Shown here in pieces: positions 32,560-60,414 of a stretch of 64,000 nucleotides of DNA. The DNA is from Struthio camelus. Its lineage: Eukaryota. The position numbers were made by a program, and so were the translations under genes. The notes beneath the pieces were generated by a model, which was not told the DNA's origin, searched no databases, and worked only from the letters and a program-made list of their open reading frames with translations. Position 1 is the stretch's first letter; every line of letters starts with the position of its first letter. The stretch spans positions 981,853 to 1,045,852 of the forward strand of contig NC_090973.1 of NCBI RefSeq assembly GCF_040807025.1, read 5' to 3'.

Positions 32560-35500
32560 GGTTACGGGACCGGTGTGGGGCGGGGGGGGGGGGACCGGTG
32601 TGGGGAGCTCCGGTGTGGGGTGAGAGGGGGGGGGACCGGTGTGGGGTGAGGGGGGCCCCGGTGTGGGGAGCTCCGGTGTGGGTTGGGGGGGGGGGACCGG
32701 TGTGAGGTGAAGGGGGCCCCGGTGTGGGGAGCTCCGGTGTGGGGTGAGGGGGGGGGACCGGTGTGGGGTGAGGGAGGCCCCGGTGTGGGGAGCTCCAGTG
32801 TGGGGTGAAGGGGGCCCCGGTGTGGGGAGCTCTGGTGTGGGGCAGCTAGGAGCTCTGGTGTGGGGTGAGGGGAGCCTAGGTGTGGGGAGCCCCGGTGTGG
32901 GGCAGCTAGGAGCCCCGGTGTGGGGTGAGGGGGGCCCCGGTGTGGGGAGCTCTGGTGTGGGGCAGCTAGGAGCTCCGGTGTGGGGTGAGGGAGGCCCAGG
33001 TGTGGGGTGAGGGAGGCCCCGGTGTGGGGAGCCCCGGTGTGGGGCAGTTAGGAGCTCTGGTGTGGGGTGAGGGAGGCCCCGGTGTGGGGAGCCCCGGTGT
33101 GGGGCAGCTATGAGCCCCGGTGTGGGGTGAAGGGGGCCCAGGTGTGGGGGAGCTCCGGTGTGGGGTGAGGGAGGCCCCGGTGTGGGGAGCCCTGGTGTGG
33201 GGTGAAGGGGGCCCAGGTGTGGGGGAGCTCCGGTGTGGGGTGAGGGAGGCCCCGGTGTGGGGAGCCCTGGTGTGGGGTGAAGGGGGCCCAGGTGTGGGGG
33301 AGCTCCGGTGTGGGGCAGCTAGGAGCCCCGGTGTGGGGTGAGGGGGGCCCAGGTGTGGGGAGCTCTGGTGTGGGGCAGCTAGGAGCTCCGGTGTGGGGTG
33401 AGGGGGGCCTAGGTGTGGGGAGCTCTGGTGTGGGGCAGCTAGGAGCCCCGGTGTGGGGTGAGGGGGGCCCCGGTGTGGGGAGCTCTGGTGTGGGGCAGCT
33501 AGGAGCTCTGGTGTGGGGTGAGGGGGGCCCCGGTGTGGGGAGCTCTGGTGTGGGGCAGCTAGGAGCCCCGGTGTGGGGTGAGAGGGGGGCCCCGGTGTGG
33601 GGAGCCCCGGTGTGGGGCAGCTAGGAGCCCCGGTGTGGGGTGAGGGGGGCCCCGGTGTGGGGAGCTCTGGTGTGGGGCAGCTAGGAGCCCCGGTGTGGGG
33701 TGAGAGGGGGGCCCCGGTGTGGGGAGCCCCGGTGTGGGGTGAGGGGGGCTCCGGTGTGGGGTGAAGGGGGCCCCGGTGTGGGGAGCTCTGGTGTGGGGCA
33801 GCTAGGAGCTCCGGTGTGGGGTGAGGGGGGCCCCGGTGTGGGGAGCTCTGGTGTGGGGCAGCTAGGAGCCCCGGTGTGGGGTGAGAGGGGGGCCCCGGTG
33901 TGGGGAGCCCCGGTGTGGGGTGAGGGGGGCTCCGGTGTGGGGTGAAGGGGGCCCCGGTGTGGGGAGCTCTGGTGTGGGGCAGCTAGGAGCCCCGGTGTGG
34001 GGTGAGGGAGGCCTAGGTGTGGGGTGGGAGGGGGGCCTAGGTGTGGGGAGCTCCGGTGTGGGGTGGGGGGGGGGGGGCTGCGGTGTGGGGAGCCCCGGTA
34101 TGGGGCAGCTAGGAGCTCCGGTGTGGGGCAAAGGGGGCCCCAGTGTGGGGTGAGGGGGGCCCCGGTGTGGGGGATCTCCGGTGTGGGGCAGCTAGGAGCC
34201 CCGGTGTGGGGCAAAGGGGGCCCCGGTGAGGGGAGGTCAGTGAGGGGAGCCCCGGTGTAGGGTGAGGGGAGCCTCAATGTGGGGAACCGCAATGTGGGGT
34301 AGCCAGGAGCCCCGGTGTGGGGCAAAGGGGGCTCTGGTGTGGGGTGAGGGGGTGCTCGGTGAGGGGAGCCCCAGTGTGCAGTGAGGGGGGTCCCAGTACG
34401 GGGCAGCCAGGTGCCCCAGTGAGGGGCCCTGGTGGGGGGCGAGGGGGTCCCCAGTGAGGGGGTCCCAGTATGGGGCAGCCAGGTGCCCCAGTGAGGGGTC
34501 CTGGTGTGGGGTGAGGGGGTCCCCGGTGAGGGGGTCCCAGTATGGGGCAGCCAGGAGCCCCAGTGAGGGGTCCTGGTGTGGGGTGAGGGGCTCCCTGGTG
34601 AGGGGGTCCCAGTATGGGGCAGCCAGGAGCCCCAGTGAGGGGTCCTAGTGGGGGGTGAGGGGGCCTGAGTGTGGGGTGAGGGGCTCCCTGGTGAGGGGGT
34701 CCCAGTATGGGGCAGCCAGGCGCCCCAGTGAGGGGCCCTGGTGTGGGGTGAGGGGGCCTGGGTGTGGGGTGAGGGGCTCCCCGGTGAGGGGGTCCCAGTA
34801 TGGGGCAGCCAGGAGCCCCAGTGAGGGGCCCTGGTGTGGGGTGAGGGGGTCCCCGGTGAGGGGGTCCCAGTATGGGGCAGCCAGGCGCCCCAGTGAGGGG
34901 TCCTGGTGTGGGGTGAGGGGCTCCCTGGTGAGGGGGTCCCAGTATGGGGCAGCCAGGCGCCCCAGTGAGGGGTCCTGGTGTGGGGTGAGGGGCTCCCCGG
35001 TGAGGGGGTCCCAGTATGGGGCAGCCAGGAGCCCCAGTGAGGGGCCCTGGTGTGGGGTGAGGGGGTCCCAGTGTGGGGTGAGGGGCTCCCCGGTGAGGGG
35101 GTCCCAGTATGGGGCAGCCAGGCGCCCCAGTGAGGGGTCCTGGTGTGGGGTGAGGGGGTGCTCAATGAGAGGAGCCCCGATGTGGGGCGAGGGGCCCCAG
35201 TACCGGGGGCAGGGGAGCCTGGGGAGGACAGAGGGGGGTCAAGGTGCCCCCACGGAGGGGTCTGGGCCAGGGTCTCAGTGGGGCTTTGGGGTGTCCCCAG
35301 TGTGGGGGTCAGGGGGGCTCAGGGTGCTCCCAATGTGGCTGGGGGGGGGGGCTCAGTGTGGGGGCCGGGGGGACCCAGCATGTGGGTCAAGGAGGGCTCA
35401 GGGTGCCCCCAATGTGGCTGAGGGGGGGGTCCTAGGGTGGGGCTCAGGGTGCCCCCAGCGTGGGGGTCAAGGAGGGCTCAGGGTGCCCCCAGTGTAGGGG

Positions 35501-35600
35501 TCAGGGGGTCCCAGCGTGGAGCTCAGGGTGCCGCCAGCGTGGGGGTCAGGGGGGTCCTTGGGGGGGGCTGCGGGTGCCCTCAGCATGGGGGCAATTTGGG
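32560..35600. repeat. G-rich minisatellites in putative SRCAP intron 1: ~60-bp ccggtgtggggtgaggggggccccggtgtggggagctctggtgtggggcagctaggag (32560-34400) and ~80-bp ggtcccagtatggggcagccaggagccccagtgaggggtcctggtgtggggtgaggggctccc (34400-35180)
   Basis: Regular tandem periodicity, and ORFs with (PHTGTPSPGS)n-type peptides on the minus strand. Confidence 0.95.
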
Positions 35601-35751
35601 GTTGGGGGGGGCACCGGGTCAGAGGGCACCGCGAGGTCAAAGGTGGCACCTGGGAGCTGTTGTGGCAGTGTTTGGGGGGGGGGGGGGGGCGGGCGCCGGC
35701 AGCACCCACGGGTGCCCCCCACCCACCCCCCTCCCCCTCGTCTCCCCACAG

Positions 35752-35825
35752 CTGCGCCCCTCGCCGCCCCACCGGCACCGTGGAAGTGGAGTGCGAGGAA
35801 GACGAGGAGGGCCCAGCGCACGCAG
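35752..35825 (+). CDS. SRCAP: Tentative SRCAP 5' coding exon (no ATG)
   Basis: Strong polypyrimidine tract plus cacag acceptor (AG 35750-35751) and caggtgggg donor (GT 35826). It is followed by a tidy 101-bp intron. It reads (C)APRRPTGTVEVECEEDEEGPAHA(G) in phase with the next exon. It has no counterpart in the human N-terminus, so it is lineage-specific or 5'UTR. Confidence 0.35.
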
Positions 35826-35926
35826 GTGGGGCGGCGGGGAGGGTGCTGGGCGGCGGGAGGAGGGGGTGCCGAGCACCCAAGGGTGCTGAGCCCCCCCCCC
35901 ATGTCCCCCCCCCCCTCCTTCTGCAG

Positions 35927-36378
35927 GCAGTTCGGCGACCGGCGGCCCAGAGCGCAGGCTGGGCCGCCAGGGCACCCAGGAGCTGGACGGCTCGTCCCGG
36001 CGGCCGCCTGAGCAGGATGAGGCCGCCTCGCAGCACGCCCTGGGGCAGCCCGCGGCGCCCCGCGCCCAGCCGGCGCCGCCGCCGGCCCCCCCCGCCGCCG
36101 CCCCCCCCCTGCCGCCGCGCCCCGAGGTGACGGCCGCCCCCCCGGGCGGCGGGGGCGGCGCGTTGCGCCCCTCGCCCTCTCCCCCGCCGCCCCCACCCCC
36201 CAGCGCCCCCGGCAGCGAGCCCGTGTCGCCCGCCTCGGCCGGCTCGCCCGCTTCCGGCGCCGCCGCCGGCGGCTCGCCCCCCGCCAACGCCCGCCTCGAC
36301 GCCGCCGCCGCCGCCCCCCCGGACCCCCCCAGCCTCTGGGACAAGACCCACGCCGAGATCGCCGAGCAGGCCAAGCAC
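35927..36378 (+). CDS. SRCAP: SRCAP N-terminal coding exon ending ...SLWDKTHAEIAEQAKH
   Basis: ttctgcag acceptor 35921-35926. The frame reads ...SEPVSPASAGSPASGAAAGGSPP...DPPSLWDKTHAEIAEQAKH, matching human SRCAP ...SNPVSPASSSSPASSGAGGISPQ...KSHAEIAEQAKH. gtgagt donor 36379. There is no in-frame ATG in this exon. Confidence 0.8.
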
Positions 36379-39300
36379 GTGAGTGCAGGCGGGGAGGTGT
36401 TTTGGGGCAAATTGGGGTGGTTTTGGGGCCCGCTTGAGAATCAAACCCGTGCTGAGATCGCTGAGCACGTGTGTGTGGGGTCAGAGCAGTGTTTTGGGGT
36501 GGTTTTGGGTCCCTCTTGAGAATCAAACCCACGCTGAGGTCTCTCAGCACGTGTGTGTGGGGTCAGAGCAGTGTTTTGGGGCGAATCAGGGTGGTTTTGG
36601 GTCCCTCTCGACAATTGGAACCCACGCCAAGATCGCCGAGGAGGCCAAGGCCGTGAGTGCAGGCGGGGAGGCGTTTTGGGGTGAATCGGGGCGGTTTTGG
36701 GTCCCGTTTGAGAATCAAAACCCACGCCAAGATCGCTGAGGAGGCCAAGGATGTGAGTGTAGGTGGGGAGGTGTTTTGGGGCAATTTGAGGCGGTTTTGG
36801 GGCCCGCTTGAGAATCAAACCCGTGCTGAGATCGCTGAGCACGTGTGTGTGGGGTCAGAGCAGTGTTTTGGGGTGATTTGGGGTGGTTTTGGGGCCCGCT
36901 TGAGAATCAAATCCGTGCTGAGGTCTCTCAGCACGTGTGTGTGGGGTCAGAGAAGTGTTTTGGGGCGAATCAGGGTGGTTTTGGGTCCCTCTCGACAATT
37001 GTAACCCACGCCGAGATCGCCGAGCAGGCCAAGCACGTGAGTGCAGGTGGGGAGGTGTTTTGGGGCAAATTGGGGTGGTTTTGGGGCCCGCTTGAGAATC
37101 AAACCCGTGCTGAGATCGCTGAGCACGTGTGTGTGGGGTCAGAGCAGTGTTTTGGGGTGATTTGGGGTGGTTTTGGGTCCCTCTTGAGAATCAAACCCAC
37201 GCTGAGGTCTCTCAGCACGTGTGTGTGGGGTCAGAGCAGTGTTTTGGGGCGAATCAGGGTGGTTTTGGGTCCCTCTCGACAATTGGAACCCACGCCAAGA
37301 TCGCCGAGGAGGCCAAGGCCGTGAGTGCAGGCGGGGAGGCGTTTTGGGGTGAATCGGGGCGGTTTTGGGTCCCGTTTGAGAATCAAAACCCACGCCAAGA
37401 TCGCTGAGGAGGCCAAGGATGTGAGTGTAGGTGGGGAGGTGTTTTGGGGCAATTTGAGGCGGTTTTGGGGCCCACTTGAGAATCAAACCCGTGCTGAGAT
37501 CGCTGAGCACGTGTGTGTGGGGTCAGAGCAGTGTTTTGGGGTGATTTGGGGTGGTTTTGGGTCCCTCTCGATAAGTGGAACCCACGCCGAGATCGCCGAG
37601 GAGGCCAAGGACGTGAGTGCAGGTGGGGAGGCGTTTTGGGGCGATTCGGGGCGGTTTTGGGTCCCGCTTGAGAATCAAAACCCACGCCGAGATCGCCGAG
37701 GAGGCCAAGGATGTGAGTGTAGGCGGGGAGGTGTTTTGGGGCAATTTGAGGCGGTTTTGGGTCCCGCTTGAGAATCAAACCTATGCTGAGATCTCTGAGC
37801 CCGTGCGTGTGGGGACGCAGAAGTGTTTTGGGGCGATTTGGGGCGGTTTTGGGTCCCTCTCGATAGTTGGAACCCACGCCGAGATCGCCGAGGAGGCCAA
37901 GGACGTGAGTGCAGGTGGGGAGGCGTTTTGGGGCGATTCGGGGCGGTTTTGGGTCCTGCTTGAGAATCAAACCTATGCTGAGATCTCTGAGCCCGTGCGT
38001 GTGGGGTCAGAGCAGTGCTTTGGGGCGAATCGGGGCGGTTTTGGCTTTCTCTTGAGAATCAAAACCCACGCCAAGATCGCTGAGGAGGCCAAGGACGTGA
38101 GTGCAGGCAGGGAGGCGTTTTGGGGCAATTTGGGGCGGTTTTGGGTCCCACTGGAGGATTAAACCTGTGCTGGCATCACTGAGCCCATGTGTGTGGGGAC
38201 GGAGAAGCGTTTTAGGGTGCTTTGGGGCGGTTTTGGGTCCCACTCGAGAATCAAACCCGTGCTGAGGTTGCTGAGCACGTGTGTGTGGGGTCAGAGCAGT
38301 GTTTTGGGGTGATTTGGGGTGGTTTTGGGTCCCTCTCAAGAACCAAAACCCGTGCTGAGATCGCCGAGGAGGCCAAGGACGTGAGTGCAGGCGGGGAGGA
38401 GTTTTGGGGCAATTTGAGGCGGTTTTGGGTCCCACTCGATGCTCAAACCCACGCTGAGATCCCTGAGCATATGCGTGTGGGGACGCAGAAGTGTTTTGGG
38501 GCGAATCGGGGCGGTTTCGGGTCCCTCTCGATAATTGGAACCCTCGCCGAGCAGGCCGAGGACGAGAGTGCGGGCAGGGAGGCGTTTTGGGGCGAATCGG
38601 GGCGGTTTCAGGTCCCTCTTGATAATTGAAGCCCGTGCTGAGATGGCCGAGCATGTGTGTGTGGGCTCAGAGCAGTGTTTTGGGGCGAATTGGGGCGGTT
38701 TTGGGTCCTTCTTGATGATCAGAACCCGCTCAGGTATCGCCGAGCAGGCCAAGCACATGAGCGCAGGCAGGGAGGTGTTTTGGGGTGAATCGGGGCGGTT
38801 TTGGGTCCCTCTCAATAATTGAATCACGTGCTGAGATCGCTGAGCACAAGCACGTGGGGTCGGAGAAGTGTTTTGGGGCGATTTGGGGTGGTTTTGGGTT
38901 CCTCTCCAGAATCAAAACCCATGCCGGGATCGCCGAGCAAGCCGAGCGCACGCGTCTGGGGTCAGAGCAGTGTTTTGGGGTGAATCAGGGTGATTTTGGG
39001 TCCCTCTCGATAATTGAAGCCCGTGCCGAGATTGGTGAGCCCCTGCGTGTGGGGTCAGAGCAGTGTTTTGGGGCGAATCGGGGTGGTTTTGGGTTTCTCT
39101 TGGGAATCAAAGCCTGCGCTGAGATCGCTGAGGAGGCCAAGGACGTGAGTGCAGGCGGGGAGGCGATTTGGGGTGAATCAGGACAGTTTTGGGTCCCTCT
39201 CGAGAACCCAAACTCACACCAAGATTGGTGAGCCCGTGCGTGTGGGCTCAGAGCAGTGTTTTGGGGCGAATCGGGGCAGTTTTGGGTCGCTCTCGAGAAC

Positions 39301-40300
39301 CCAAACTCCTGCCAAGATCGCTGAGCCTGTGCGTGTGGGGTCAGAGCAGTGTTTTGGGGCGAATCGGGGTGGTTTTGGGTTTCTCTTGAGAATCAAAACG
39401 TGCGCCGAGATCGCTGAGGAGGCCAAGGACGTGAGTGCAGGCGGGGAGGTGTTTTGGGGTGATTTGAGGTGGTTTTGGGTCCCTCTCGATGATCCAAACC
39501 CGCGCCGAGGTCACTGAGCAGACCAAGCATGAGTGCTGATGGGGAGGTGATTTGGGGTGATTTGGGACGATTTTGGGTCCTTCTTAAGAATCAAAACCCA
39601 CGCTGAGATCTCTGAGCCCGTGCGTGTGGGGTCAGAGCAGTGTTTTGGGGCGAATTGGGGTGGTTTTGGGTTTCTCTTGAGAATCAAAACGTGCGCGGAG
39701 ATCCCTGAGGAGTCCAAGCATGTGAGCGCAGGTGGGGAGATGTTTTGGGGTGAATCGGGGTGGTTTTGGGTTTCTCTCAAGAACCAAAACCCACACCAAG
39801 ATTGCTGAGGAGGCCAAGCGTGTGGATGCAGGCAGGGAGGCGTTTTGGGGCAAATTGAGGCAGTTTTTGGTCCCTCTCGAGAACCCAAACTCCCACCAAG
39901 GTCGCCGAGCCCGTGCGTGTGGGGTCAGAGCAGTGTTTTGGGGCGAATCGGGGCGGTTTTGGGTTTCTCTTGGGAATCAAAAACCCGCGTGGACATCGTT
40001 GAGGAGGCCAAGGATGTGAGTGCAGGCGGGGAGGCGATTTGGGGCGAATCAGGACAGTTTTGGGCCCCTCTCGAGAACCCAAACTCACACCAAGATCGCT
40101 GAGCCCGTGCGTGTGGGCTCAGAGCAGTGTTTTGGGGCGAATCGGGGTGGTTTTGGGTTTCTCTTGGGAATCAAAGCCTGCGCTGAGATCGCTGAGGAGG
40201 CCAAGGACGTGAGTGCAGGCAGGGAGGTGTTTTGGGGTGAATCGAGGTGGTTTTGGGTCCCTCTCGAGAACCCAAACTCCCGCCAAGGTCGCCGAGCCCG
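36379..40300. repeat. ~140-bp tandem repeat (x~28) derived from the SRCAP exon-B 3' end plus splice donor
   Basis: Each unit carries a copy of acccacgccgagatcgccgagcaggccaagcacGTGAGTGCAGGcggggagg. An exact 44-nt copy including the GT donor lies at 37004-37047. Diverged copies are at 36610-36665, 36728-36770, 37298, 37386, 37575, 37690, 37880, 38075, 38350 and others. Repeat ORFs encode THAKIAEEAKD, versus real THAEIAEQAKH. Confidence 0.9.
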
Positions 40301-41002
40301 TGCGTGTGGGCTCAGGGCAGTGTTCTGGGGCGAATCGGGGCGGTTTCGGGTCTGCCGCGGAGCCCGGCGACCGCCGAGGGCAGCCCGAAGCGTGGCGACG
40401 CCGGGAGGCGTCTCGCGGCGCTTCGGCCCTTCTCCCCTTGCGGCCGGAGCCGAGCTCCCCGGCGGGGGGGGAGGGGGGGGGACGTGCAGCTTTTGGGGTG
40501 AATCGAGGTGGTTTTGGGTCCCTCTTGATAATCGGGCCGCGTTGAGATCGCTGAGCCCGTGCGTGTGGGGTCAGAGCAGTGTTTTGGGGTGATTCGAGGT
40601 GGTTTTGGGTCCCTCTCGAGAACCAAAACCTGTGCTGAGATCGCCGAGGAGGCCAAGGACGTGAGTGCAGGCGGGGAGGTGATTTGGGGCGAATCGAGGT
40701 GGTTTTGGGTCCCTCTCGAGAACTCAAACTCACACCAAGATTGGTGAGCCCGTGCGTGTGGGCTCAGGGCAGTGTTCTGGGGCGAATCGGGGCGGTTTCG
40801 GGTCCGCCGCGGAGCCCGGCGACCGCCGAGGGCAGCCCGAAGCGTGGCGACGCCGGGAGGCGTCTCGCGGCGCTTCGGCCCTTCTCCCCTTGCGGCCGGA
40901 GCCGAGCTCCCCGGGCGGGCGGGCGAGCGGGCGACGGGGCCGGTTTTGGGGGCGAAGCCGGGCGGTTTCGGGCCCGCCGCGACGCCTCGCCTGGCCGGGC
41001 AG

Positions 41003-41188
41003 GAGGCGCAGGTGGAGCACCGCGTGGCCGAGATGAAGAAGGAGGGCTTCTGGTCGCTCAAGCGGTTGGCCAAGGTGCCCGAGCCGGCGCGCCCCAAGGT
41101 GCACTGGGACTACCTGTGCGAGGAGATGCAGTGGCTGGCCGCCGACTTCGCCCAGGAGCGCCGCTGGAAGCGCGGCGTCGCCCGCAAG
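41003..41188 (+). CDS. SRCAP: SRCAP exon (HSA domain part 1)
   Basis: AG acceptor 41001-41002. Encodes EAQVEHRVAEMKKEGFWSLKRLAKVPEPARPKVHWDYLCEEMQWLAADFAQERRWKRGVARK, versus human EAEIETRIAELRKEGFWSLKRLPKVPEPPRPKGHWDYLCEEMQWLSADFAQKKRWKRGVARK. GT donor 41189. Confidence 0.88.
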
Positions 41189-41199
41189 GTGTGTGTGGG

Positions 41200-44100
41200 G
41201 GGGCGCCTTTGGGTGCCGCCGGGGTGCTGGGGGACCGGGTGTGAGTGCTGGAGGGTGTCAGGAGGGAGATTGGGGGTGTTGGAGGGCGCGTTTGGGTGCT
41301 GGAGGGGCAGGTTTGGGTGCTGGGGGGTGTGAGGAGGGTGAATGGGGGTGTTGGAGGGGCAGGTTTGGGTGCTGGGGGGTGTCAGGAGGGAGATTGGGGG
41401 TGTTGGAGGGCGCGTTTGGGTGCTGGAGGGGCAGGTTTGGGTGCTGGGGGTTGTCAGGAGGGAGATTGGGGGTGTCAGGAGGGGGAGTTTGGGTGCTGGG
41501 GGACTGAGTCTGGGTGCTGAGAGGTGTCAGGAGGGAGATTGGGGGTGTTGGAGGGTGCGTTTGGGTGCTGGAGGGGCAGGTTTGGGTGCTGGGGGGTGTG
41601 AGGAGGGTGAATGGGGGTGTTGGAGGGCGCGTTTGGGTGCTGGAGGGGCAGGTTTGGGTGCTGGAGGGTGTCAGGAGGGGGAGTTTGGGTGCTGGGGGAC
41701 TGAGTCTGGGTGCTGAGAGGTGTCAGGAGGGAGATTGGGGGTGTTGGAGGGCGCGTTTGGGTGCTGGAGGGGCAGGTTTGGGTGCTGGGGGGTTGTCAGG
41801 AGGGTGAATGGGGGTGTTGGAGGGGCAGGTTTGGGTGCTGGGGGGTGTGAGGAGGGTGAATGGGGGTGTTGGAGGGTGCATTTGGGTGCTGGGGAGGCCA
41901 GGTGTGGGTGCTGGGGGGTGTCAGGAGGGTGAGTTTGGGTGCCGGGGGGTGGGTTTGGGTGCTGGGGGGTGTCAGGAGGGGGAGTTTGGGGGGTGTGAGG
42001 AGGGTGAATGGGGGTGTTGGCGCGTTTGGGTGCTGGGGGGTGTCAGGAGGGTGAGTTTGGGTGCTGGAGGGGCAGGTTTGGGTGCTGGAGGGTGTGAGGA
42101 GGGTGAATGGGGGTGTTGGAGGGCACGTTTGGGTGCTGGAGGGGCAGGTTTGGGTGCTGGGGGGTGTCAGGAGGGGGAGTTTGGGTGCTGGGGGACTGAG
42201 TCTGGGTGCTGAGAGGTGTCAGGAGGGAGATTGGGGGTGTTGGAGGGCGCGTTTGGGTGCTGGGGGGGCAGGTTTGGGTGCTGGGGGGTGTGAGGAGGGT
42301 GAATGGGGGTGTTGGAGGGCACGTTTGGGTGCTGGGGGGCAGGTTTGGGTGCTGGAGGGTGTGAGGAGGGTGAATGGGGGTGTTGGAGGGCACGTTTGGG
42401 TGCTGGAGGGGCAGGTTTGGGTGCTGGGGGGTGTCAGGAGGGGGAGTTTGGGTGCTGGGGGACTGAGTCTGGGTGCTGAGAGGTGTCAGGAGGGAGATTG
42501 GGGGTGTTGGAGGGCGCGTTTGGGTGCTGGGGGGGCAGGTTTGGGTGCTGGGGGGTGTGAGGAGGGTGAATGGGGGTGTTGGAGGGCACGTTTGGGTGCT
42601 GGAGGGGCAGGTTTGGGTGCTGGAGGGTGTGAGGAGGGTGAATGGGGGTGTTGGAGGGCACGTTTGGGTGCTGGAGGGGCAGGTTTGGGTGCTGGGGGGT
42701 GTCAGGAGGGGGAGTTTGGGTGCTGGGGGACTGAGTCTGGGTGCTGAGAGGTGTCAGGAGGGAGATTGGGGGTGTTGGAGGGCGCGTTTGGGTGCTGGGG
42801 GGGCAGGTTTGGGTGCTGGGGGGTGTGAGGAGGGTGAATGGGGGTGTTGGAGGGCACGTTTGGGTGCTGGGGGGCAGGTTTGGGTGCTGGGGGGTGTCAG
42901 GAGGGGGAGTTTGGGTGCTGGGGGACTGAGTCTGGGTGCTGAGAGGTGTCAGGAGGGAGATTGGGGGTGTTGGAGGGTGCGTTTGGGTGCTGGAGGGGCA
43001 GGTTTGGGTGCTGGGGGGTGTCAGGAGGGCGAGTCTGGGTGCTGGGGGACTGAGTCTGGGTGCTGAGAGGTGTCAGGAGGGAGATTGGGGGTGTTGGAGG
43101 GTGTGTTTGGGTGCTGGAGGGGCAGGTTTGGGTGCTGGGGGGTGTGAGGAGGGTGAATGGGGGTGTTGGAGGGTGCATTTGGGTGCTGGGGAGGCCAGGT
43201 GTGGGTGCTGGGGGGTGTCAGGAGGGTGAGTTTGGGTGCCGGGGGGTGGGTTTGGGTGCTGGGGGGTGTCAGGAGGGGGAGTTTGGGGGGTGTGAGGAGG
43301 GTGAATGGGGGTGTTGGCGCGTTTGGGTGCTGGGGGGTGTCAGGAGGGTGAGTTTGGGTGCTGGAGGGGCAGGTTTGGGTGCTGGAGGGTGTGAGGAGGG
43401 TGAATGGGGGTGTTGGAGGGCACGTTTGGGTGCTGGAGGGGCAGGTTTGGGTGCTGGGGGGTGTCAGGAGGGGGAGTTTGGGTGCTGGGGGACTGAGTCT
43501 GGGTGCTGAGAGGTGTCAGGAGGGAGATTGGGGGTGTTGGAGGGCGCGTTTGGGTGCTGGGGGGGCAGGTTTGGGTGCTGGGGGGTGTGAGGAGGGTGAA
43601 TGGGGGTGTTGGAGGGCACGTTTGGGTGCTGGGGGGCAGGTTTGGGTGCTGGGGGGTGTCAGGAGGGGGAGTTTGGGTGCTGGGGGACTGAGTCTGGGTG
43701 CTGAGAGGTGTCAGGAGGGAGATTGGGGGTGTTGGAGGGTGCGTTTGGGTGCTGGAGGGGCAGGTTTGGGTGCTGGGGGGTGTCAGGAGGGCGAGTCTGG
43801 GTGCTGGGGGACTGAGTCTGGGTGCTGAGAGGTGTCAGGAGGGAGATTGGGGGTGTTGGAGGGTGCGTTTGGGTGCTGGAGGGGCAGGTTTGGGTGCTGG
43901 GGGGTGTGAGGAGGGTGAATGGGGGTGTTGGAGGGCGCGTTTGGGTGCTGGGGAGGCCAGGTGTGGGTGCTGGGAGATGTCAGGAGGGTGAGTTTGGGTG
44001 CCGGGGGGTGGGTTTGGGTGCTGGGGGGTGTCAGAGGGCGCGTTTGGGTGCTGGGGAGGCCAGATTGGGGTGCCGGGGGGGCAGGTTTGGGTGCTGAGGG

Positions 44101-44230
44101 GTGTCAGGAGGGCGCGTGGGGGTGTCAGAGGGCAAGTTTGGATGCTGTGGGGGGGGGCTAGATTTGGGTGCTGGGGGGGGGGGGCAAACGTGGGTGCCAA
44201 GTGGGGGCACCAAACTGGGGTGCTAGGCGG
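41200..44230. repeat. G-rich ~60-bp minisatellite (ggtgctggaggggcaggtttgggtgctggggggtgtgaggagggtgaatgggggtgttggagggcgcgtttgg) with ~650-bp higher-order units in the SRCAP intron
   Basis: Repeated track ORFs (LEGQVWVLGGVRR... ) recur at 42061, 42473, 43060 and 43358. Confidence 0.95.
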
Positions 44231-44361: not shown

Positions 44362-44502
44362 GTGGTGCGCATGGTGCTGCGGCACCACGAGGAGCAGCGG
44401 CAGCGCGAGGAGCGGGCCAAGCGGGAGGAGCAGGCCAAGCTGCGCCGCGTCGCCGCCTCCATCGCCCGCGAGGTCAAGCACTTCTGGAGCAACGTGGAGA
44501 AG
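44362..44502 (+). CDS. SRCAP: SRCAP exon (HSA domain part 2)
   Basis: AG acceptor 44360-44361. Encodes VVRMVLRHHEEQRQREERAKREEQAKLRRVAASIAREVKHFWSNVEK. GT donor 44503. Confidence 0.88.
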
Positions 44503-44504
44503 GT

Positions 44505-47250
44505 GCCGGGGCTACCGCCCCCCCCCCGGGTGGCTACCGACACCCCTGGGTGGCTACCGACCCCCCCCCCGGTGGCTACCGACCCCCCCCCGGGCCCCCT
44601 GACACGCTGCCTCGCTCCGCTTGGCGTCTCTGTCCCGTCACCCCCCTTCATGGCTCTGCTGACCCCCCCTCGTGTGGCTACTGACCCCCCCTCATGTGGC
44701 TACTGACCCCCCCTCATGTGGCTACTGACTCCCGTGGGTGGCTACTGACTCCCGTGGGTGGCTACTGGCCCCCCCACGCGGCTACGGGCGCCCCTGACAC
44801 GCTGCGTCGCTCCGCTTGGCGTCTCTGCTGCGTCGCCACCTTTCATGGCTCTGCTGACGCCCCCCCATGTGGCTACTGACTCCCATAGGTGGCTACTGAC
44901 TCCCATAGGTGGCTACTGACTCCCATAGGTGGCTACCGACCCCCCCCCCGGCCCCCTGACACGCTGCCTCGCTCCGCTTGGCGTCTCTGTCCCGTCACCC
45001 CCCTTCATGGCTCTGCTGACCCCCCCTCATGTGGCTACTGACCCCCCCTCATGTGGCTACTGACCCCCCCCTCATGTGGCTACTGACCCCCCCCTCATGT
45101 GGCTACTGACTCCCGTGGGTGGCTACTGACTCCCGTGGGTGGCTACTGGCCCCCCCACGCGGCTACGGGCGCCCCCGACACGCTGCGTCGCTCCGCTTGG
45201 CGTCTCTGCTGCGTCGCCACCTTTCATGGCTCTGCTGACGCCCCCCCCAGGTGGCTACTGACTCCCCCAGGTGGCTACTGACTCCCCCAGGTGGCTACTG
45301 CCCCCCCCCCCGGCCCCCCCGACACGCTCCGTCGCTCTGCTTGGTGTCTCTGCCACGTCGCCACCCTTCATGGCTCTGCTGGCCCTGGGCGGCTACCAAA
45401 CCCTCCCTGGGTGGCTACTGAACCCCCCCATGCGGCTACAGGCCCCCGGTTGTGCTCTGTTGCTCTGCATAGCCCTGGGCTACCAAATAACAACCCCCCC
45501 CCCCCCAGGTGGCCACTGGGTCGTGTCTGACAAGCCCTGGGCTACCAACCTCGCTAGGTGGCTAGCAAACGCCCCAGGTGGCTACCAACCTCCCTAGGTG
45601 GCCACCATCCCATGTCCTGCTAGTGCTGGGCTACCAGACCTTTTTCAGTGGCCATGTGGCATGTCTCACTAGCCCTGGGCTGGCTACCGACCCTTGTTGG
45701 TGGCCCCCCACCCCATGTCCCACTAGCCCTGGGCTACCAAACCACTTTGAGCAGCCACGTGGCATGTCCCACTAGCCCTGGGTGGCTACCAACCCCCCCC
45801 CCAGGTGGCCATCACCCTGTGTTGACCAGCCGTGGGCTACTAGACCTCTCAGCGGCCACATGGCGTGTCTTGCTAGCCCCAGGTGGCTACCAAACATCCC
45901 AGGCGGCTACCAGCCCCCCTTTAGGTGGCCCCCACCCCATGTCCCGCTAGCCCCCGGCTACCAAACCTCTCTCAGTGGCTGTGTCTCGCCAACCCTGGGT
46001 GTCCGTGACCCCTCCTGGGTGGCTAACACCCGACCGGGTGGCTACCAAACACCCCCTAGGTGGCCACCATCCCCTCCCAGTGGCTCCCAAGTCCCCCTAG
46101 GTGGCCACCATCCCCTCCCAGTGGCTCCCAAGTCCCCCTAGGTGGCCACCAACCTGCTCCAAGTGGCTCCCAGCCCCTCCCCGGTGGCCACCGACCCCCC
46201 TCCGTGGGCAACCAGCTCCCTCCAAGTGACAACTGACCTCCCCAAGTGGCCACCAACCCCCCTCCTAGGTGGCTCCCAATCCCCCCAAGTGGCCACGAAC
46301 CCCCCCCAAGTGGCCACCATCCCCCCTCCAAGTGGCTCCAGCCCCTGCCAGGTGGCTACCCACCCCCCAAGTAGCCCCCAACCCCCCCCAAGTGGCCACC
46401 ATCCCCCCCTCCAAGTGGCTCCAGCCCCTGCCAGGTGGCTACCAACTCCCCCGAGGTGGCTACCCCCCCCCCAAATGGCTCCCAACCCCCTCTAGGTGGC
46501 TACCAACTCCCCCCAGATGACTCCCAACCCCCTCTAGGTGGCTACCAACCCCCTCGAGATGGCTACCATGCCCCCTCTAAGTGGCTCCAGCCCCTGCCAG
46601 GTGGCTCCCAACCCCCTCTAGGTGGCTACCCCCCCCCAAATGGCTCCCAACCCCCTCTAGGTGGCTACCAACTCCCCCCAGATGACTCCCAACCCCCTCT
46701 GGTGGCTACCAACCCCCTCGAGATGGCTACCATGCCCCCTCTAAGTGGCTCCAGCCCCTGCCAGGTGGCTCCCAACCCCCTCTAGGTGGCTACCCCCCCC
46801 CCAAATGGCTCCCAACCCCCTCTAGGTGGCTACCAACTCCCCCCAGATGACTCCCAACCCCCTCTAGGTGGCTACCAACCCCCTCGAGATGGCTACCATG
46901 CCCCCTCTAAGTGGCTCCAGCCCCTGCCAGGTGGCTCCCAACCCCCTCTAGGTGGCTACCAACTCCCCCCAGATGGCTCCCAACCCCCCGTAGCGGCCAC
47001 CAACCCCTCTGAGGTGGCTACCATGCCCCCTCCAAGTGGCTCCCAACCTCCACCAGGTGGCTACCATCCCCTCCAAGCGACAGCCAACCCCCCAAGTGGC
47101 TCCCAGCCCCTCCCCAAGTGGCTACCCACCCCCTAAATTGGCTCCCAAGCCCCTCCAAGTGGCCACCAATCCCCTCCAGGTGGCTCCCATCCCCACCCCG
47201 ATGCCTCCGTCTGGGGGCCGGGGGAGGCTGGGGGCCGGCGGGGGGGGGGC
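44505..47250. repeat. C-rich minisatellites in the SRCAP intron: ~20-30 bp gtggctactgacycccc(gtgggt) (44505-45300) then ~40-bp ccccaagtggctcccaaccccctctaggtggctaccaac with ~351-bp higher-order units (45300-47230)
   Basis: Near-identical ORFs at 46435 and 46786 are offset by 351 bp. Confidence 0.9.
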
Positions 47251-52800: not shown

Positions 52801-52852
52801 CTGGGGTGCCGGCCCCGCTCACGGCACCCCCCCACCCCGGACGACCCCGCAG

Positions 52853-53181
52853 ACTCGCCGGCGGCCGAGAGCGAGGAGGACGAGGAGGAGGAGGAGGAGG
52901 ACGATGACGAGGACGAGGAGGAGGAGGAGGAGGACGACGAGGAGGACGAGGAGGTCGAGGAAGACGAGGAGGAGGAGGACGAAGAAGGGGCGGCGGCGGC
53001 CGGCGCCGAGGAGGAGGACCGCGGGGAGGACTGCGGCGTGGCCTACCTGCTGCAGGGCGACGAGGAGCGGGCGGGCGCCCCGCCGGCCGCCCCGGCCCCG
53101 GCCCCCAAGGCCGAGATCACCGACATCGCCGCCGCCGCCGAGAGCCTCCAACCCAAGGGCTACACCCTGGCCACCACCCAG
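52853..53181 (+). CDS. SRCAP: SRCAP exon (acidic stretch plus conserved [25 protein letters not shown])
   Basis: AG acceptor 52851-52852. Encodes a D/E-rich run, then [49 protein letters not shown], versus human FGVEYLLARDEEQ...[27 protein letters not shown] donor 53182. Confidence 0.88.
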
Positions 53182-53439: not shown

Positions 53440-54480
53440 GGGGGCTGCCGGGGGCCGCCCGAGTGCCTCCCGGCCCCTTGGGGGGGGGGACTGGGGGGGG
53501 TTGGGTGTTGGTGACGGTGTGCAGGCACCTCGAGAGCTGCTCGTGGTGTTGGTGGGAGGTGCCGCGGGGTGTGGGGTGGTGTTGAGCGTGTGTGAGTGGC
53601 TCGGGGGCTGTTCGTGGTGGTGGTGGGAGGTGCCAGGGGGTTGTGGGTATTGGGGATGGTGTGCAGGCACCTTGGGGGCTGCTCAGGGTGTTGTTGGGAG
53701 GTGCTGGGGGGGTTGGGTGTTGTTGAGCATGTGCTGGCACCTTGGGGGCTGCTCAGGGTGTTGTTGGGAGGTGCTGGGGGGGTTGGGTGTTGTTGAGCAT
53801 GTGCTGGCACCTTGGGGGCTGCTCAGGGTGTTGTTGGGAGGTGCTAGGGGGTTGTGAGTGTTGTTGGTTGTGCGTGGGCACCTCGGGGGCTGCTCGTGGT
53901 GTTGTTGGGAGGTGCTGGGAGGTTGTGGGTGTTGTTGGTTGTGTGTGGACACCTTGGGCTGCTTGTGGCATTGTTGGGAGGTGCCGGAGGGTTGTGGGTG
54001 TTGGTTGTGTGTGGACACCTCAGGGGCTGCTCGTGGCGTTGTTGGGAGGTGCCGGAGGGTTGTGGGTGTTGTTGGTTGTGTGTGGACACCACAGGGGCTG
54101 CTCGTGGCGTTGTTGGGAGGTGCTGGGAGGTTGTGGGTGTTGTTGGTTGTGTGTGGACACCTCAGGGGCTGCTCGTGGCGTTGTTGGGAGGTGCTGGGAG
54201 GTTGTGGGTGTTGTTGGTTGTGTGTGGACACCTCAGGGGCTGCTCGTGGCGTTGCTGGGAGGGGCCGGAGGGTTGTGGGTGTTGTTGGTTGTGTGTGGAC
54301 ACCACAGGGGCTGCTCGTGGCGTTGTTGGGAGGTGCTGGGAGGTTGTGGGTGTTGTTGGCTGTGTGCAGGCGGCTCGCGGTGTTGTTAGGAGGTGCCAGG
54401 AGGTTGTGAGCGTTGGCGGTTGCGCGCGGGCGCCTCGAGAGCTGCTCGGCCGTTTCACCCCGCGGCTCCTGGGTGCTCCG
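53440..54480. repeat. G/T-rich ~60-bp minisatellite (ggctgctcgtggcgttgttgggaggtgctgggaggttgtgggtgttgttggttgtgtgtggacacctcag)
   Basis: About 16 units in the SRCAP intron between the GLGKT and SWGPHLII exons. Confidence 0.9.

Positions 54481-57499: not shown

Positions 57500-60414
<2,915 letters not shown>

What the first reader, a model, noticed from the sequence alone, without database searches (positions are those of the whole stretch)
36345..40300. A 4-kb intronic minisatellite made of tandem copies of an exon end plus its 5' splice site (SRCAP)
The last ~35 nt of SRCAP exon B (encoding THAEIAEQAKH) together with its GTGAGTGCAGG donor is repeated about 28 times through the downstream intron, with a 140-bp period. 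A perfect 44-nt copy including the GT lies 659 bp downstream at 37004-37047. Each copy is a potential cryptic donor preceded by exon-like sequence, so this array could generate alternative 5' splice site use or exon extension, and it documents how the array was seeded.
Basis: seen in the sequence. Interest (0 to 1): 0.8.

Follow-up and report, generated by a model that had tools for sequence, protein, structure and literature searches.

The report
Exon-end repeat array in SRCAP intron
One intron of a bird-like SRCAP gene has grown from a few hundred bases to 4.6 kb by tandem copying of a 100-base piece holding the end of the upstream exon and its splice signal, which is a further example of the recently described "exon stuttering" of bird dot chromosomes, not a new kind of element.

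Summary
The monomer is 100 nt: the last 33 nt of an SRCAP exon plus 67 nt of intron (36346-36445). It occurs in a long (100 nt) and a short (92/93 nt) form, not with a 140-bp period. There are 44 copies after the authentic one: 21 long and 23 short. Fifteen keep an intact GTGAGT donor. The perfect 44-mer at 37004-37047 is confirmed. It belongs to a roughly 540-nt block that is 99.6% identical to 36346-36884.

The array fills about 94% of the 4,624-nt intron (36379-41002). The same intron is 167 nt and 495 nt in two other tetrapods, and the exon-end peptide HAEIAEQAKH is identical in human SRCAP. The exon therefore seeded the array.

Every GTGAGT decoy would add in-frame stop codons. Only a weaker pseudo-donor at 36469 gives an in-frame, stop-free 30-aa insertion.

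The class is known: "exon stuttering" on chicken dot chromosomes (Hron et al. 2026), boundary-spanning VNTRs in human F7, CBS, IFI6, LMNB2 and PDGF, and amphioxus "mirages". SRCAP is not in the published chicken list.

Verdict: a new, large member of a known kind. Interest is modest.

The parts
35927..36378 (+). SRCAP exon 'B', ending ...SLWDKTHAEIAEQAKH. It has no ATG in frame, so the start codon lies in an upstream exon.
   Evidence: Translation. The spliced B+C+D translation matches human SRCAP residues 89-211, E = 1e-62, and the Pfam HSA domain. The acceptor at 35925-26 is inferred from the sequence.
36379..41002 (+). Intron B-C, 4,624 nt. About 94% of it is monomers of the array.
   Evidence: Donor CAC|GTGAGT at 36379 and acceptor cag| at 41000-41002. 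The protein alignment with human SRCAP is contiguous across the junction.
36346..36445 (+). Monomer 1 of the array. It consists of the last 33 nt of exon B (ACC CAC GCC GAG ATC GCC GAG CAG GCC AAG CAC), the authentic donor and the first 67 nt of the intron. It spans the exon-intron boundary.
   Evidence: All BLAST copies start at 36346. Homology upstream of 36346 is not significant. Unit alignment.
36346..40352 (+). Main block of the array: 42 monomers including the authentic one. The order of L (100 nt) and S (92/93 nt) forms is LSSLLSSLSSLLSLLSLSLSSLSLSLSLSLSSLLSLLSLSLS.
   Evidence: TRF 36342-40352 with periods 93, 100, 192, 284 and 384. Segmentation and MAFFT alignment. Mean pairwise identity is 0.80 within L, 0.81 within S and 0.65 between L and S.
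37004..37552 (+). Recent copy of 36346-36884. It begins with the perfect 44-mer (37004-47), which reproduces the exon end and the donor.
   Evidence: Global alignment shows 2 mismatches and one 10-nt indel over about 540 nt.
36653..40666 (+). Span that holds the 15 decoy donors with intact GTGAGT. Their G(+1) positions are 36653, 36753, 37037, 37321, 37421, 37613, 37713, 37905, 38097, 38381, 39145, 39431, 40016, 40209 and 40661. A GTGAGC decoy lies at 39722.
   Evidence: The U1 duplex energy is -6.6 to -7.4 kcal/mol, against -6.9 for the authentic site. Every one brings 2 to 50 in-frame stops.
36469..36480 (+). First S-type pseudo-donor, CAC|GTGTGTGTGGGG, 90 nt into the intron. It is the only homologous pseudo-site that gives an in-frame, stop-free extension (+30 aa: VSAGGEVFWGKLGWFWGPLENQTRAEIAEH).
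   Evidence: The 12-mer is identical to exon C's authentic donor at 41189.
40353..40480 (+). Non-repeat GC-rich segment 'U' that interrupts the array.
   Evidence: It is about 99% identical to the start of 40805-40941.
40481..40804 (+). Second block of the array: a truncated monomer followed by S, L and S monomers. It is part of a 452-nt-offset duplication of the array's 3' end plus U.
   Evidence: 40093-40477 matches 40545-40931 at 93% identity. Alignment A1.
40805..40941 (+). Segment 'U-prime', the second copy of U. It diverges from U after about 120 nt.
40942..40981 (+). Degenerate partial monomer (GGTTTTGGGGGCGAAGCCGGGCGGTTTCGGGCCCGCCGCG), 21 nt before the acceptor. The junction 'monomer tail + CCGCCGCG' occurs three times, at 40330, 40782 and 40952.
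   Evidence: 30-nt local alignments, with 0 of 500 shuffles reaching the score.
41003..41188 (+). SRCAP exon 'C' (EAQVEHRVAEMKKEGFWSLKRL...GVARK), with donor AAG|GTGTGTGTGGGG at 41189.

Best explanation
**What it is.** This is a boundary-spanning intronic minisatellite. It matches the "exon stuttering" form of the "sequence stuttering" described for genes on bird dot chromosomes.

**How it arose.** A 100-nt segment was duplicated in tandem. The segment held the last 33 nt of an ancient SRCAP coding exon, its 5' splice site and the next 67 nt of a formerly short intron. The copies were then amplified. Amplification most likely occurred by unequal exchange, gene conversion or replication slippage between monomers.
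- An early variant lost 9 nt of the exon-like part and changed the donor to GTGTGT or GTGCGT. This is the S form.
- L and S forms were then co-amplified as higher-order blocks.
- The process is recent or ongoing. A block of about 540 nt that starts exactly at the exon-derived sequence is present twice at 99.6% identity.
- The authentic exon end therefore still behaves as the first monomer of the array.
- The coding exon itself is intact.

**Splicing (inferred, not shown).** The most upstream, authentic donor is used. This follows the experimentally studied human arrays of this type, such as F7 IVS7, LMNB2 and PDGF. Use of a decoy is expected to be rare. It would be unproductive for all GTGAGT copies because of premature stop codons. 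One exception is the proximal weaker site at 36469, which would add 30 residues in frame. On this reading the array has no dedicated function. It is a by-product of local repeat instability that the splicing machinery tolerates.
For: **Structure**
- TRF and unit alignment.
- Every BLAST copy of the exon end begins exactly at 36346.
- The 44-mer is perfect, and the 540-nt block is 99.6% identical to its copy.
- Units at both ends of the array have near-identical partners. Middle units are the most diverged.
- The array's 3' end plus segment U is duplicated at 93% identity.

**Direction of seeding**
- HAEIAEQAKH is identical in human SRCAP.
- The same exon end, donor and intron position occur in an unidentified tetrapod with a 167-nt intron and no repeat. 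They also occur in the frog Ranitomeya with a 495-nt intron.
- ORF fragments from other vertebrates all break at ...Q|EAE.

**Specificity**
- This is the only exon of those screened with genuine copies in an adjacent intron.
- The monomer is not found elsewhere in the window.

**Context**
- About 54% of the window is high-scoring tandem arrays, and GC content is 57-77%.

**Splicing consequences**
- Decoys are identical to the authentic site from +1 to +8 and have the same U1 pairing energy.
- All GTGAGT decoys bring in-frame stops. The site at 36469 gives a +90-nt in-frame extension.

**Precedent**
- Hron et al. 2026, PMC12954441.
- Borensztajn et al. 2006, PMC1557585.
- Amphioxus mirages, PMC3087553.
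Against: - No transcript data were available, so exclusive use of the first donor rests on analogy. [quoted passage not shown]
- No reads were available to exclude assembly error within the near-identical blocks.
- The species and chromosome of the window are not established.
- The two passerine contigs retrieved lack exon B within reach. There is therefore no close-relative comparison to date the expansion.
- The amplification mechanism (meiotic exchange versus replication-associated) cannot be distinguished from sequence.
Confidence: 0.82

Rival explanations
1. The array is a working alternative 5' splice-site module. Decoy donors are used regularly. They either make SRCAP isoforms or tune SRCAP output through unproductive splicing and nonsense-mediated decay.
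For: - Fifteen decoys are identical to the real donor from +1 to +8 with equal predicted U1 pairing. One decoy (37037) is identical from -33 to +11.
- The pseudo-donor at 36469 preserves the frame with no stop. Its 12-mer equals exon C's real donor.
- In human IFI 6-16 and CBS, proximal pseudo-sites of such arrays are used.
Against: - All GTGAGT or GTGAGC decoys introduce 2 to 50 in-frame stops. Thirteen of the 16 also shift the frame.
- In F7, LMNB2 and PDGF only the first site is used. [quoted passage not shown]
- The monomers are diverging freely, at 65-81% mean identity, with indels that destroy donors. This is not the pattern expected of a selected module.
- The orthologous intron lacks the array in other tetrapods.
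Confidence: 0.1
2. The array, or its near-identical blocks, is an assembly artefact. This could be over-expansion or mis-joining of repetitive long reads.
For: - The 36346-36884 and 37004-37552 blocks are 99.6% identical.
- Hron et al. warn that some local variation in such introns can be technical.
Against: - Monomers show a graded, structured divergence with two subfamilies, private indels and older duplications at 93% identity. Assembly loops do not produce this pattern.
- There are no Ns.
- The same architecture was verified with raw nanopore reads for other genes by Hron et al..
Confidence: 0.05
3. The repeat is older than the exon end. On this view an intronic satellite or dispersed element supplied the present exon 3' end and donor (exonisation), or the resemblance is low-complexity chance.
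For: The monomer's TTTTGGGG-rich part weakly resembles another array at 13.3-15.2 kb.
Against: - The exon-end peptide and the intron position are conserved in human, frog and another tetrapod that lack the array.
- The exon-like part of the monomer occurs nowhere else in the window.
- No shuffle produced a single match to the junction pattern, against 17 observed.
Confidence: 0.01
4. The array has an RNA- or DNA-level role unrelated to splice choice. Examples are a platform of U1 and hnRNP H/F sites that protects the long intron from premature cleavage, or a G-rich non-template strand that shapes transcription.
For: There are 190 GGG runs on the sense strand of the intron against 90 CCC runs, with a donor-like site in most monomers.
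Against: - Only 2 canonical G4 motifs were found.
- There was no Rfam match.
- The array is not conserved outside this lineage.
- Neighbouring introns carry unrelated arrays of both G-rich and C-rich polarity. This fits general instability better than a specific role.
Confidence: 0.03

Closest known systems
Exon stuttering / sequence stuttering on chicken dot chromosomes (Hron et al. 2026, Genome Biol Evol, PMC12954441)
   Same: - A lateral part of a coding exon, with its adjacent splice site, is copied in imperfect tandem through the neighbouring intron while the exon stays intact.
- The source sequence touches the exon border.
- The exon part is 33 nt. The published range is 20-187 nt with a median of 36.
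- The intron is almost fully covered by tandem repeats.
- The region is GC-rich and repeat-dense, and each intron has its own array.
- The locus passes their published BLAST criterion.
   Different: - SRCAP is not among the 115 genes listed in their Fig. S5.
- The species and chromosome of this window are not known.
- With 44 copies by my unit alignment, this case is very large. Their BLAST screen reported 1-44 copies per expansion, with a median of 4. By their exon-only criterion this locus gives 7 hits.
- Their paper does not analyse splicing consequences.
Human minisatellites whose first monomer spans an exon-intron boundary: F7 IVS7 (37 bp x 5-9), CBS IVS13, IFI 6-16 intron 2, LMNB2 (100 bp x 10-15), PDGF intron 4 (81 bp x 16-18) (Borensztajn et al. 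2006, PMC1557585)
   Same: - The first monomer contains the exon end and the authentic donor.
- The donor is reiterated downstream as pseudo-sites.
- The monomer size of about 100 nt equals that of the LMNB2 case.
   Different: - This case has more monomers and two diverged subfamilies.
- Here 33 nt of coding sequence are included, against 4 nt in F7.
- Here most monomers have drifted from the authentic site, whereas the F7 pseudo-sites are strictly identical.
- The splicing outcome is untested here.
Amphioxus 'mirage' minisatellites (Adh3, globins; Canestro et al. 2002; PMC3087553)
   Same: - These are minisatellite-like tandem duplications of an exon-intron boundary.
- Many units carry AG/GT signals.
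- Regular splicing is reported to be undisturbed.
- Units show concerted evolution within the cluster.
   Different: - Mirages are from cephalochordates and have few units (3-6 in the globin example).
- They were discussed as a route to new introns. Here the intron is ancient and has only been enlarged.
Introns born from tandem arrays (Zhuo et al. 2007) and intron gain by tandem duplication of an AGGT segment (Rogers 1989; Gao and Lynch 2009)
   Same: Tandem duplication reiterates splice signals.
   Different: - No new intron is created here. The intron position is shared with frog, another tetrapod and, by ORF fragments, a mammal.
- The monomers lack a good 3' splice site. Most have GAG at the candidate position, and only one has CAG.

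Membership tests
Exon stuttering (Hron et al. 2026) | Part of a coding exon is repeated, in direct orientation, in the adjacent (proximal) intron. The published screen uses blastn-short with no dust filter and requires hits of at least 20 nt and at least 42.1 bits. | tested here: met
   Exon B against intron B-C gives 7 hits of 42.1-65.9 bits, all on the plus strand. The shuffled-intron maximum is 20.3 bits. With the donor flank included there are 17 hits.
Exon stuttering (Hron et al. 2026) | The source sequence lies within 1 nt of the exon border, so the copied block spans the border and carries the splice site. | tested here: met
   The source is 36346-36378, which ends at the last exon base. 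Copies continue into GTGAGTGCAGG.
Exon stuttering (Hron et al. 2026) | Copies form imperfect tandem clusters, and the intron is heavily covered by simple or tandem repeats. | tested here: met
   TRF 36342-40352. There are 45 monomers in register, covering about 94% of the intron.
Exon stuttering (Hron et al. 2026) | The source exon and the coding sequence stay intact. | tested here: met
   The spliced translation aligns without a gap to human SRCAP residues 89-211.
Exon stuttering (Hron et al. 2026) | Location on an avian dot chromosome. | not testable with these tools
   No chromosome or species label is available. The context fits: GC content is 57-77% and 54% of the window is tandem arrays. 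The best protein matches are passerine. KAT8, PPP4C and ALDOA are listed on chicken dot chromosome 38. From my own knowledge, these are 16p11.2 neighbours of SRCAP in human.
Exon stuttering (Hron et al. 2026) | Intron length is polymorphic among individuals. | not testable with these tools
   This needs population long reads. The 99.6% identical block shows only that turnover is recent.
Boundary-spanning VNTR of the F7 IVS7 type | The first monomer of an intronic minisatellite contains the exon end and the authentic donor. | tested here: met
   Monomer 1 is 36346-36445.
Boundary-spanning VNTR of the F7 IVS7 type | The authentic donor sequence is reiterated downstream as pseudo-sites. | tested here: met
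   Fifteen copies have GTGAGT identical from +1 to +6, and most are identical to +8. The copy at 37037 is identical over -33 to +11.
Boundary-spanning VNTR of the F7 IVS7 type | Only the most upstream donor, or the first few, is used in vivo. | not testable with these tools
   No transcript data were available. Only the coding consequences were computed.
Introns created from tandem arrays or AGGT duplication (Zhuo 2007; Rogers 1989) | The intron itself is new and was created by the duplication. | tested here: not met
   The same intron position is found in frog (495 nt) and in another tetrapod (167 nt). ORF fragments also break at Q|EAE.
Introns created from tandem arrays or AGGT duplication (Zhuo 2007; Rogers 1989) | Each unit carries both a usable 5' splice site and a usable 3' splice site. 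| tested here: not met
   The candidate 3' position is mostly GAG, GAC or GAT. CAG occurs only in the unit at 38890, and AAG occurs in three units.

The most novel reading that the evidence does not exclude
The array may not be splicing-neutral. The proximal pseudo-donor at 36469 could yield an SRCAP isoform with a 30-residue insertion just before the HSA region. The 15 strong GTGAGT decoys could divert a length-dependent share of transcripts into nonsense-mediated decay. Copy-number variation of the array would then act as a cis-acting dosage variant of a chromatin remodeller that is dosage-sensitive in humans. The locus would also be a natural 16-site test of how the first of many identical 5' splice sites is chosen.
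Probability: 0.1. Interest if true: 0.6.

Novelty: new member of a known kind. Interest (0 to 1): 0.3.

Why it matters
As a phenomenon this is already described: exon stuttering in chicken, boundary-spanning VNTRs in human genes, and mirages in amphioxus. Its value is as a clean and unusually large example in an essential gene.

- It has 44 copies and two subfamilies.
- A very recent re-copying of the exon end shows that the coding exon is still an active partner in the array's turnover.
- It offers a natural substrate for testing 5' splice-site choice among many identical sites.
- It is a warning for annotation. The array produces dozens of spurious ORFs of 90 aa or more and many strong false donors.
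- It adds SRCAP to the list of affected genes. Exchange with the array could in principle alter the coding exon end, for example Q to E or H to D as seen in the L monomers.

Tried and rejected
1. **Fuzzy-regex scan.** A scan for the 44-mer timed out. A first pairwise scheme with wrong end-gap settings stretched the alignments. Both were replaced by a MAFFT unit alignment.
2. **Close relatives.** Passerine contigs were fetched through protein hits: Camarhynchus (L001) and Zosterops (L002). Both contain exon C. Neither contains exon B or this array, within 10 kb and 1.2 kb upstream respectively. They carry other, unrelated arrays, so they are uninformative for dating.
3. **Array-derived ORFs.** A protein search with a 181-aa ORF from the array gave no hit at E <= 0.001. 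It was meant to find the array in other assemblies.
4. **Exon homology upstream of 36346.** This is not significant. The consensus scored no better than 712 of 2000 shuffles. One variant was marginal at 77 of 2000.
5. **Is segment U an old copy of the intron 3' end plus exon C?** Only the 30-nt stretch 'monomer tail + CCGCCGCG' is shared, and nothing extends into exon C.
6. **Rfam scan of 35500-41500.** No family reached threshold.
7. **Apparent second stuttering hit.** The match between exon I and 52885-52917 is GAG/GAC acidic low-complexity coding sequence inside the exon. My tblastn-derived exon boundary was too short.
8. **Self-BLAST at 93% or higher.** It failed to list the 99.6% block. 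A global alignment was used instead.
9. **Human SRCAP sequence.** A sequence recalled from memory was used only to locate exons. Gene identity rests on the PDB and Pfam searches.


Full report
**Gene context.** The + strand of the window from about 35.9 kb onward encodes an SRCAP orthologue.
- A tblastn run with a human SRCAP sequence recalled from memory, used only as a lead, located about 15 collinear exon matches between 37.0 and 62.1 kb.
- Independent tools confirmed the identity. The concatenated translation of three predicted exons (ending at 36378, 41003-41188, and about 44362-44503) matches human SRCAP chain 6igm_H residues 89-211 at E = 1e-62, without a gap. It also contains a Pfam HSA domain.
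- The exon of interest ends ...SLWDKTHAEIAEQAKH at 36378, with donor CAC|GTGAGTGCAGG at 36379.
- The next exon starts at 41003, after ...ggccgggcag.
- The intron is therefore 36379-41002, which is 4,624 nt.

**The observation.**
- TRF finds one array at 36342-40352 with periods 93, 100, 192, 284 and 384 nt. It does not find a 140-nt period.
- I segmented the array on the anchor GGTTTTGGG and aligned the units with MAFFT. This gave 45 units in register. They are the authentic exon-intron junction unit, 41 further units up to 40341, and three more at 40510-40793.
- There are two forms.
  - L units (21 copies, about 100 nt) keep the whole exon-like segment ACCCACGCCGAGATCGCYGAGGAGGCCAAGGAC followed by GTGAGTGCAGG.
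  - S units (23 copies, 92/93 nt) lack 9 nt of the exon-like part. They read ...GAGATCGCTGAGCAC|GTGTGTGTGGGGTCAGAGCAG or ...CCC|GTGCGTGTGGGG.
- Identity to the last 33 exon nucleotides is 22-33 of 33 in L units and 16-21 of 33 in S units.
- Mean pairwise identity is 0.80 within L, 0.81 within S and 0.65 between the forms.
- The perfect 44-mer is confirmed: 36346-36389 equals 37004-37047.
- The junction pattern GCCAAGSACGTGAGTGCAGG with up to 2 mismatches occurs 17 times. All hits are on the + strand in this intron. None occurred in 100 shuffles.
- As a control, I screened the SRCAP exons in the window against their introns. I used the published exon-stuttering criterion (blastn-short, at least 20 nt, at least 42.1 bits).
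  - Only this exon has genuine copies: 7 hits of up to 65.9 bits, against a shuffled maximum of 20.3. With the flanks included there are 17 hits.
  - One other hit is acidic low-complexity coding sequence inside an exon whose boundary I had set too short.

**Anatomy of the monomer and the array.**
- All copies begin at 36346. Similarity upstream of that point is no better than shuffles.
- The simplest monomer is 36346-36445, which is 33 exon nt plus 67 intron nt. It spans the boundary.
- The unit order is LSSLLSSLSSLLSLLSLSLSSLSLSLSLSLSSLLSLLSLSLS, followed by SLS in the second block.
- Units at both ends of the array have partners at 0.9-1.0 identity. The central units (about 38.1-39.6 kb) are the most diverged, at 0.75-0.86 to their nearest neighbour. 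Several of these keep exon-type bases (CAG...CAC) with decayed donors. This suggests an old core with younger, homogenised flanks.
- The block 36346-36884 recurs at 37004-37552 with two mismatches and one 10-nt indel.
  - The copy's left edge is a hybrid. It has an L-unit head (as in the units at 36593 and 37261) joined to the exon-type sequence at ACCCACGCC.
  - This is what unequal exchange or gene conversion between the authentic junction and an L unit would give (inference).
- At the 3' end, the last units plus a unique GC-rich segment U (40353-40480) were duplicated with an offset of 452 nt, at 93% identity.
- A degenerate partial monomer lies 21 nt from the acceptor. The junction 'monomer tail + CCGCCGCG' occurs three times.
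- Monomers occupy about 94% of the intron.
- The monomer is not a dispersed element. Outside the intron, only its TTTTGGGG-rich part weakly matches another array at 13.3-15.2 kb.
- No Rfam family matches.

**Direction and age.**
- HAEIAEQAKH is identical in human SRCAP.
- Two Logan contigs from an unidentified tetrapod (L003, L004; GC 44%) carry ...TGGGACAAGACTCATGCTGAAATTGCTGAACAGGCCAAGCAC|GTAAGC. A 167-nt non-repetitive intron follows, then ...tattgcag|GAGGCCGAGATTGAG.
- In the frog Ranitomeya imitator (L005) the same intron is 495 nt.
- ORF fragments from other vertebrates all switch from non-coding-like to coding sequence at Q|EAE.
- The exon end, the donor and the intron position are therefore ancient. 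The array derives from them and is lineage-specific.
- Two passerine contigs contain exon C (93.5% amino-acid identity). They do not reach exon B and carry unrelated arrays, so the expansion cannot be dated more closely.
- A protein search with an array-derived ORF found nothing.

**Splicing consequences (computed) and behaviour (inferred).**
- Fifteen copies keep GTGAGT at the homologous position. Their predicted U1 pairing is -6.6 to -7.4 kcal/mol, against -6.9 for the authentic site. They differ from it only at exon positions -3 to -1.
- The copy at 37037 is identical to the authentic site from -33 to +11.
- Read-through from the exon meets a TGA at 36517.
- Every GTGAGT or GTGAGC decoy would include 2 to 50 in-frame stops. 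Thirteen of the 16 would also shift the frame.
- The exception is the first S-type site, CAC|GTGTGT at 36469.
  - It lies 90 nt into the intron and is in frame and stop-free.
  - It would add VSAGGEVFWGKLGWFWGPLENQTRAEIAEH.
  - Its 12-mer GTGTGTGTGGGG occurs nine times in the window: eight times in S units and once as exon C's own donor.
- No transcript data were available.
[quoted passage not shown] Reports for LMNB2 and PDGF agree, while IFI 6-16 and CBS also use the two proximal pseudo-sites.
- By analogy, I infer predominant use of 36379. Possible minor use of proximal sites cannot be excluded.

**Comparison with what is known.**
- The structure is an instance of a described class.
- Hron et al. 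(2026; PMC12954441) report "sequence stuttering" in introns of chicken dot-chromosome genes. They include "exon stuttering", in which a lateral part of an exon with its splice site is copied through the adjacent intron.
  - It affects 115 genes and 236 introns.
  - The source lies within 1 nt of the exon border in more than 90% of cases.
  - The exon part is 20-187 nt, with a median of 36.
  - There are 1-44 copies per expansion, with a median of 4.
  - The spans are 112-23,555 bp.
  - 95% of the affected introns are length-polymorphic.
- The present locus meets every sequence-level criterion, including their BLAST threshold.
- SRCAP does not appear among the gene headings of their Fig. S5, and the stored supplement file was not truncated.
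- KAT8, PPP4C and ALDOA are listed on chicken chromosome 38. From my own knowledge, these are neighbours of SRCAP in human 16p11.2.
- The window's composition fits that setting. GC content is 57-77%. About 54% of the window lies in high-scoring tandem arrays, and nearly every intron has its own array.
- Older analogues are the boundary-spanning human VNTRs and the amphioxus "mirages".
- It is not a case of intron birth from a tandem array or from AGGT duplication. The intron pre-exists and the units lack good 3' splice sites.

**Verdict.**
- The locus is a large, well-preserved new member of a known kind.
- It is most likely a tolerated by-product of local repeat instability and not a functional module.
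- It is useful as a natural test of 5' splice-site choice.
- It is also a caution for gene annotation, because the array yields many spurious ORFs of 90 aa or more on both strands.

Noticed in passing
L005 9343-9837 (Ranitomeya imitator, orthologous SRCAP intron): The frog's orthologous 495-nt intron is itself almost filled by an unrelated minisatellite. Its unit of about 26 nt (GGGGTAACCCGCCCGAGCACCCCCC) starts a few bases after the donor GTGAGTACCCGCCC, and each unit carries a GGTAAC donor-like motif. The same intron has therefore acquired a donor-adjacent array independently in an amphibian.
   Followed up: partly
window 41189-41200 and eight S monomers (36469, 36551, 36843, 36935, 37127, 37219, 37511, 38279): The 12-mer GTGTGTGTGGGG occurs nine times in 64 kb, against 0.2 expected. 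Eight occurrences are at the donor-homologous position of S monomers. The ninth is the authentic donor of the next exon (C). It is unclear whether this is coincidence or an old exchange between the two donors.
   Followed up: partly
window 1-64000: About 34.5 kb (54%) of the window lies in tandem arrays with a TRF score of at least 600, at 57-77% GC. Nearly every SRCAP intron has its own private array. Examples are 41221-44124 (starting 33 nt after exon C's donor), 44640-45385, 46037-47199, 53494-54366, 55283-56923 and 58218-59460. Only the B-C array contains exon sequence.
   Followed up: partly
window 40093-40477 vs 40545-40931: There is an older duplication (93% identity, offset 452 nt) of the array's last units plus the unique GC-rich segment U. 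The junction 'monomer tail + CCGCCGCG' appears three times (40330, 40782, 40952). The last copy lies just before the acceptor. This hints that the ancestral short intron ran from the donor through a monomer-like 60 nt straight into this segment.
   Followed up: partly
window 13329-15163: A separate array with a 20/21-nt unit (TTTGGGGGCGGTTTGGGGGG) shares only the TTTTGGGG-type motif with the non-exonic part of the SRCAP monomer. The matches are weak (75-92% over 14-44 nt).
   Followed up: no
L001 705-9797 (Camarhynchus parvulus contig CABFNF010000810.1, upstream of SRCAP exon C): The 10 kb upstream of exon C in this finch assembly contains unrelated arrays, and no exon B was found. The arrays include a 45-nt unit (CCAAAATTCTCTAAAAACGGCCC...), a 21-nt unit, and AT-rich units of 153-357 nt. 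This fits the report that orthologous introns of related birds carry different expansions, or it reflects an incomplete assembly.
   Followed up: partly
window 36300-41050, both strands: The array generates 30 ORFs of at least 90 aa, up to 334 aa when they run into the GC-rich exon. One is a 130-aa ORF that reads from exon B into the intron. These are likely to cause spurious gene calls by ORF-based annotators.
   Followed up: no
window 52851-52990: The SRCAP acidic exon contains (GAG/GAC)n low-complexity coding sequence. It produces a false 'exon stuttering' hit of 50 bits when the exon boundary is set too short. This is a caveat for automated screens of this type.
   Followed up: yes
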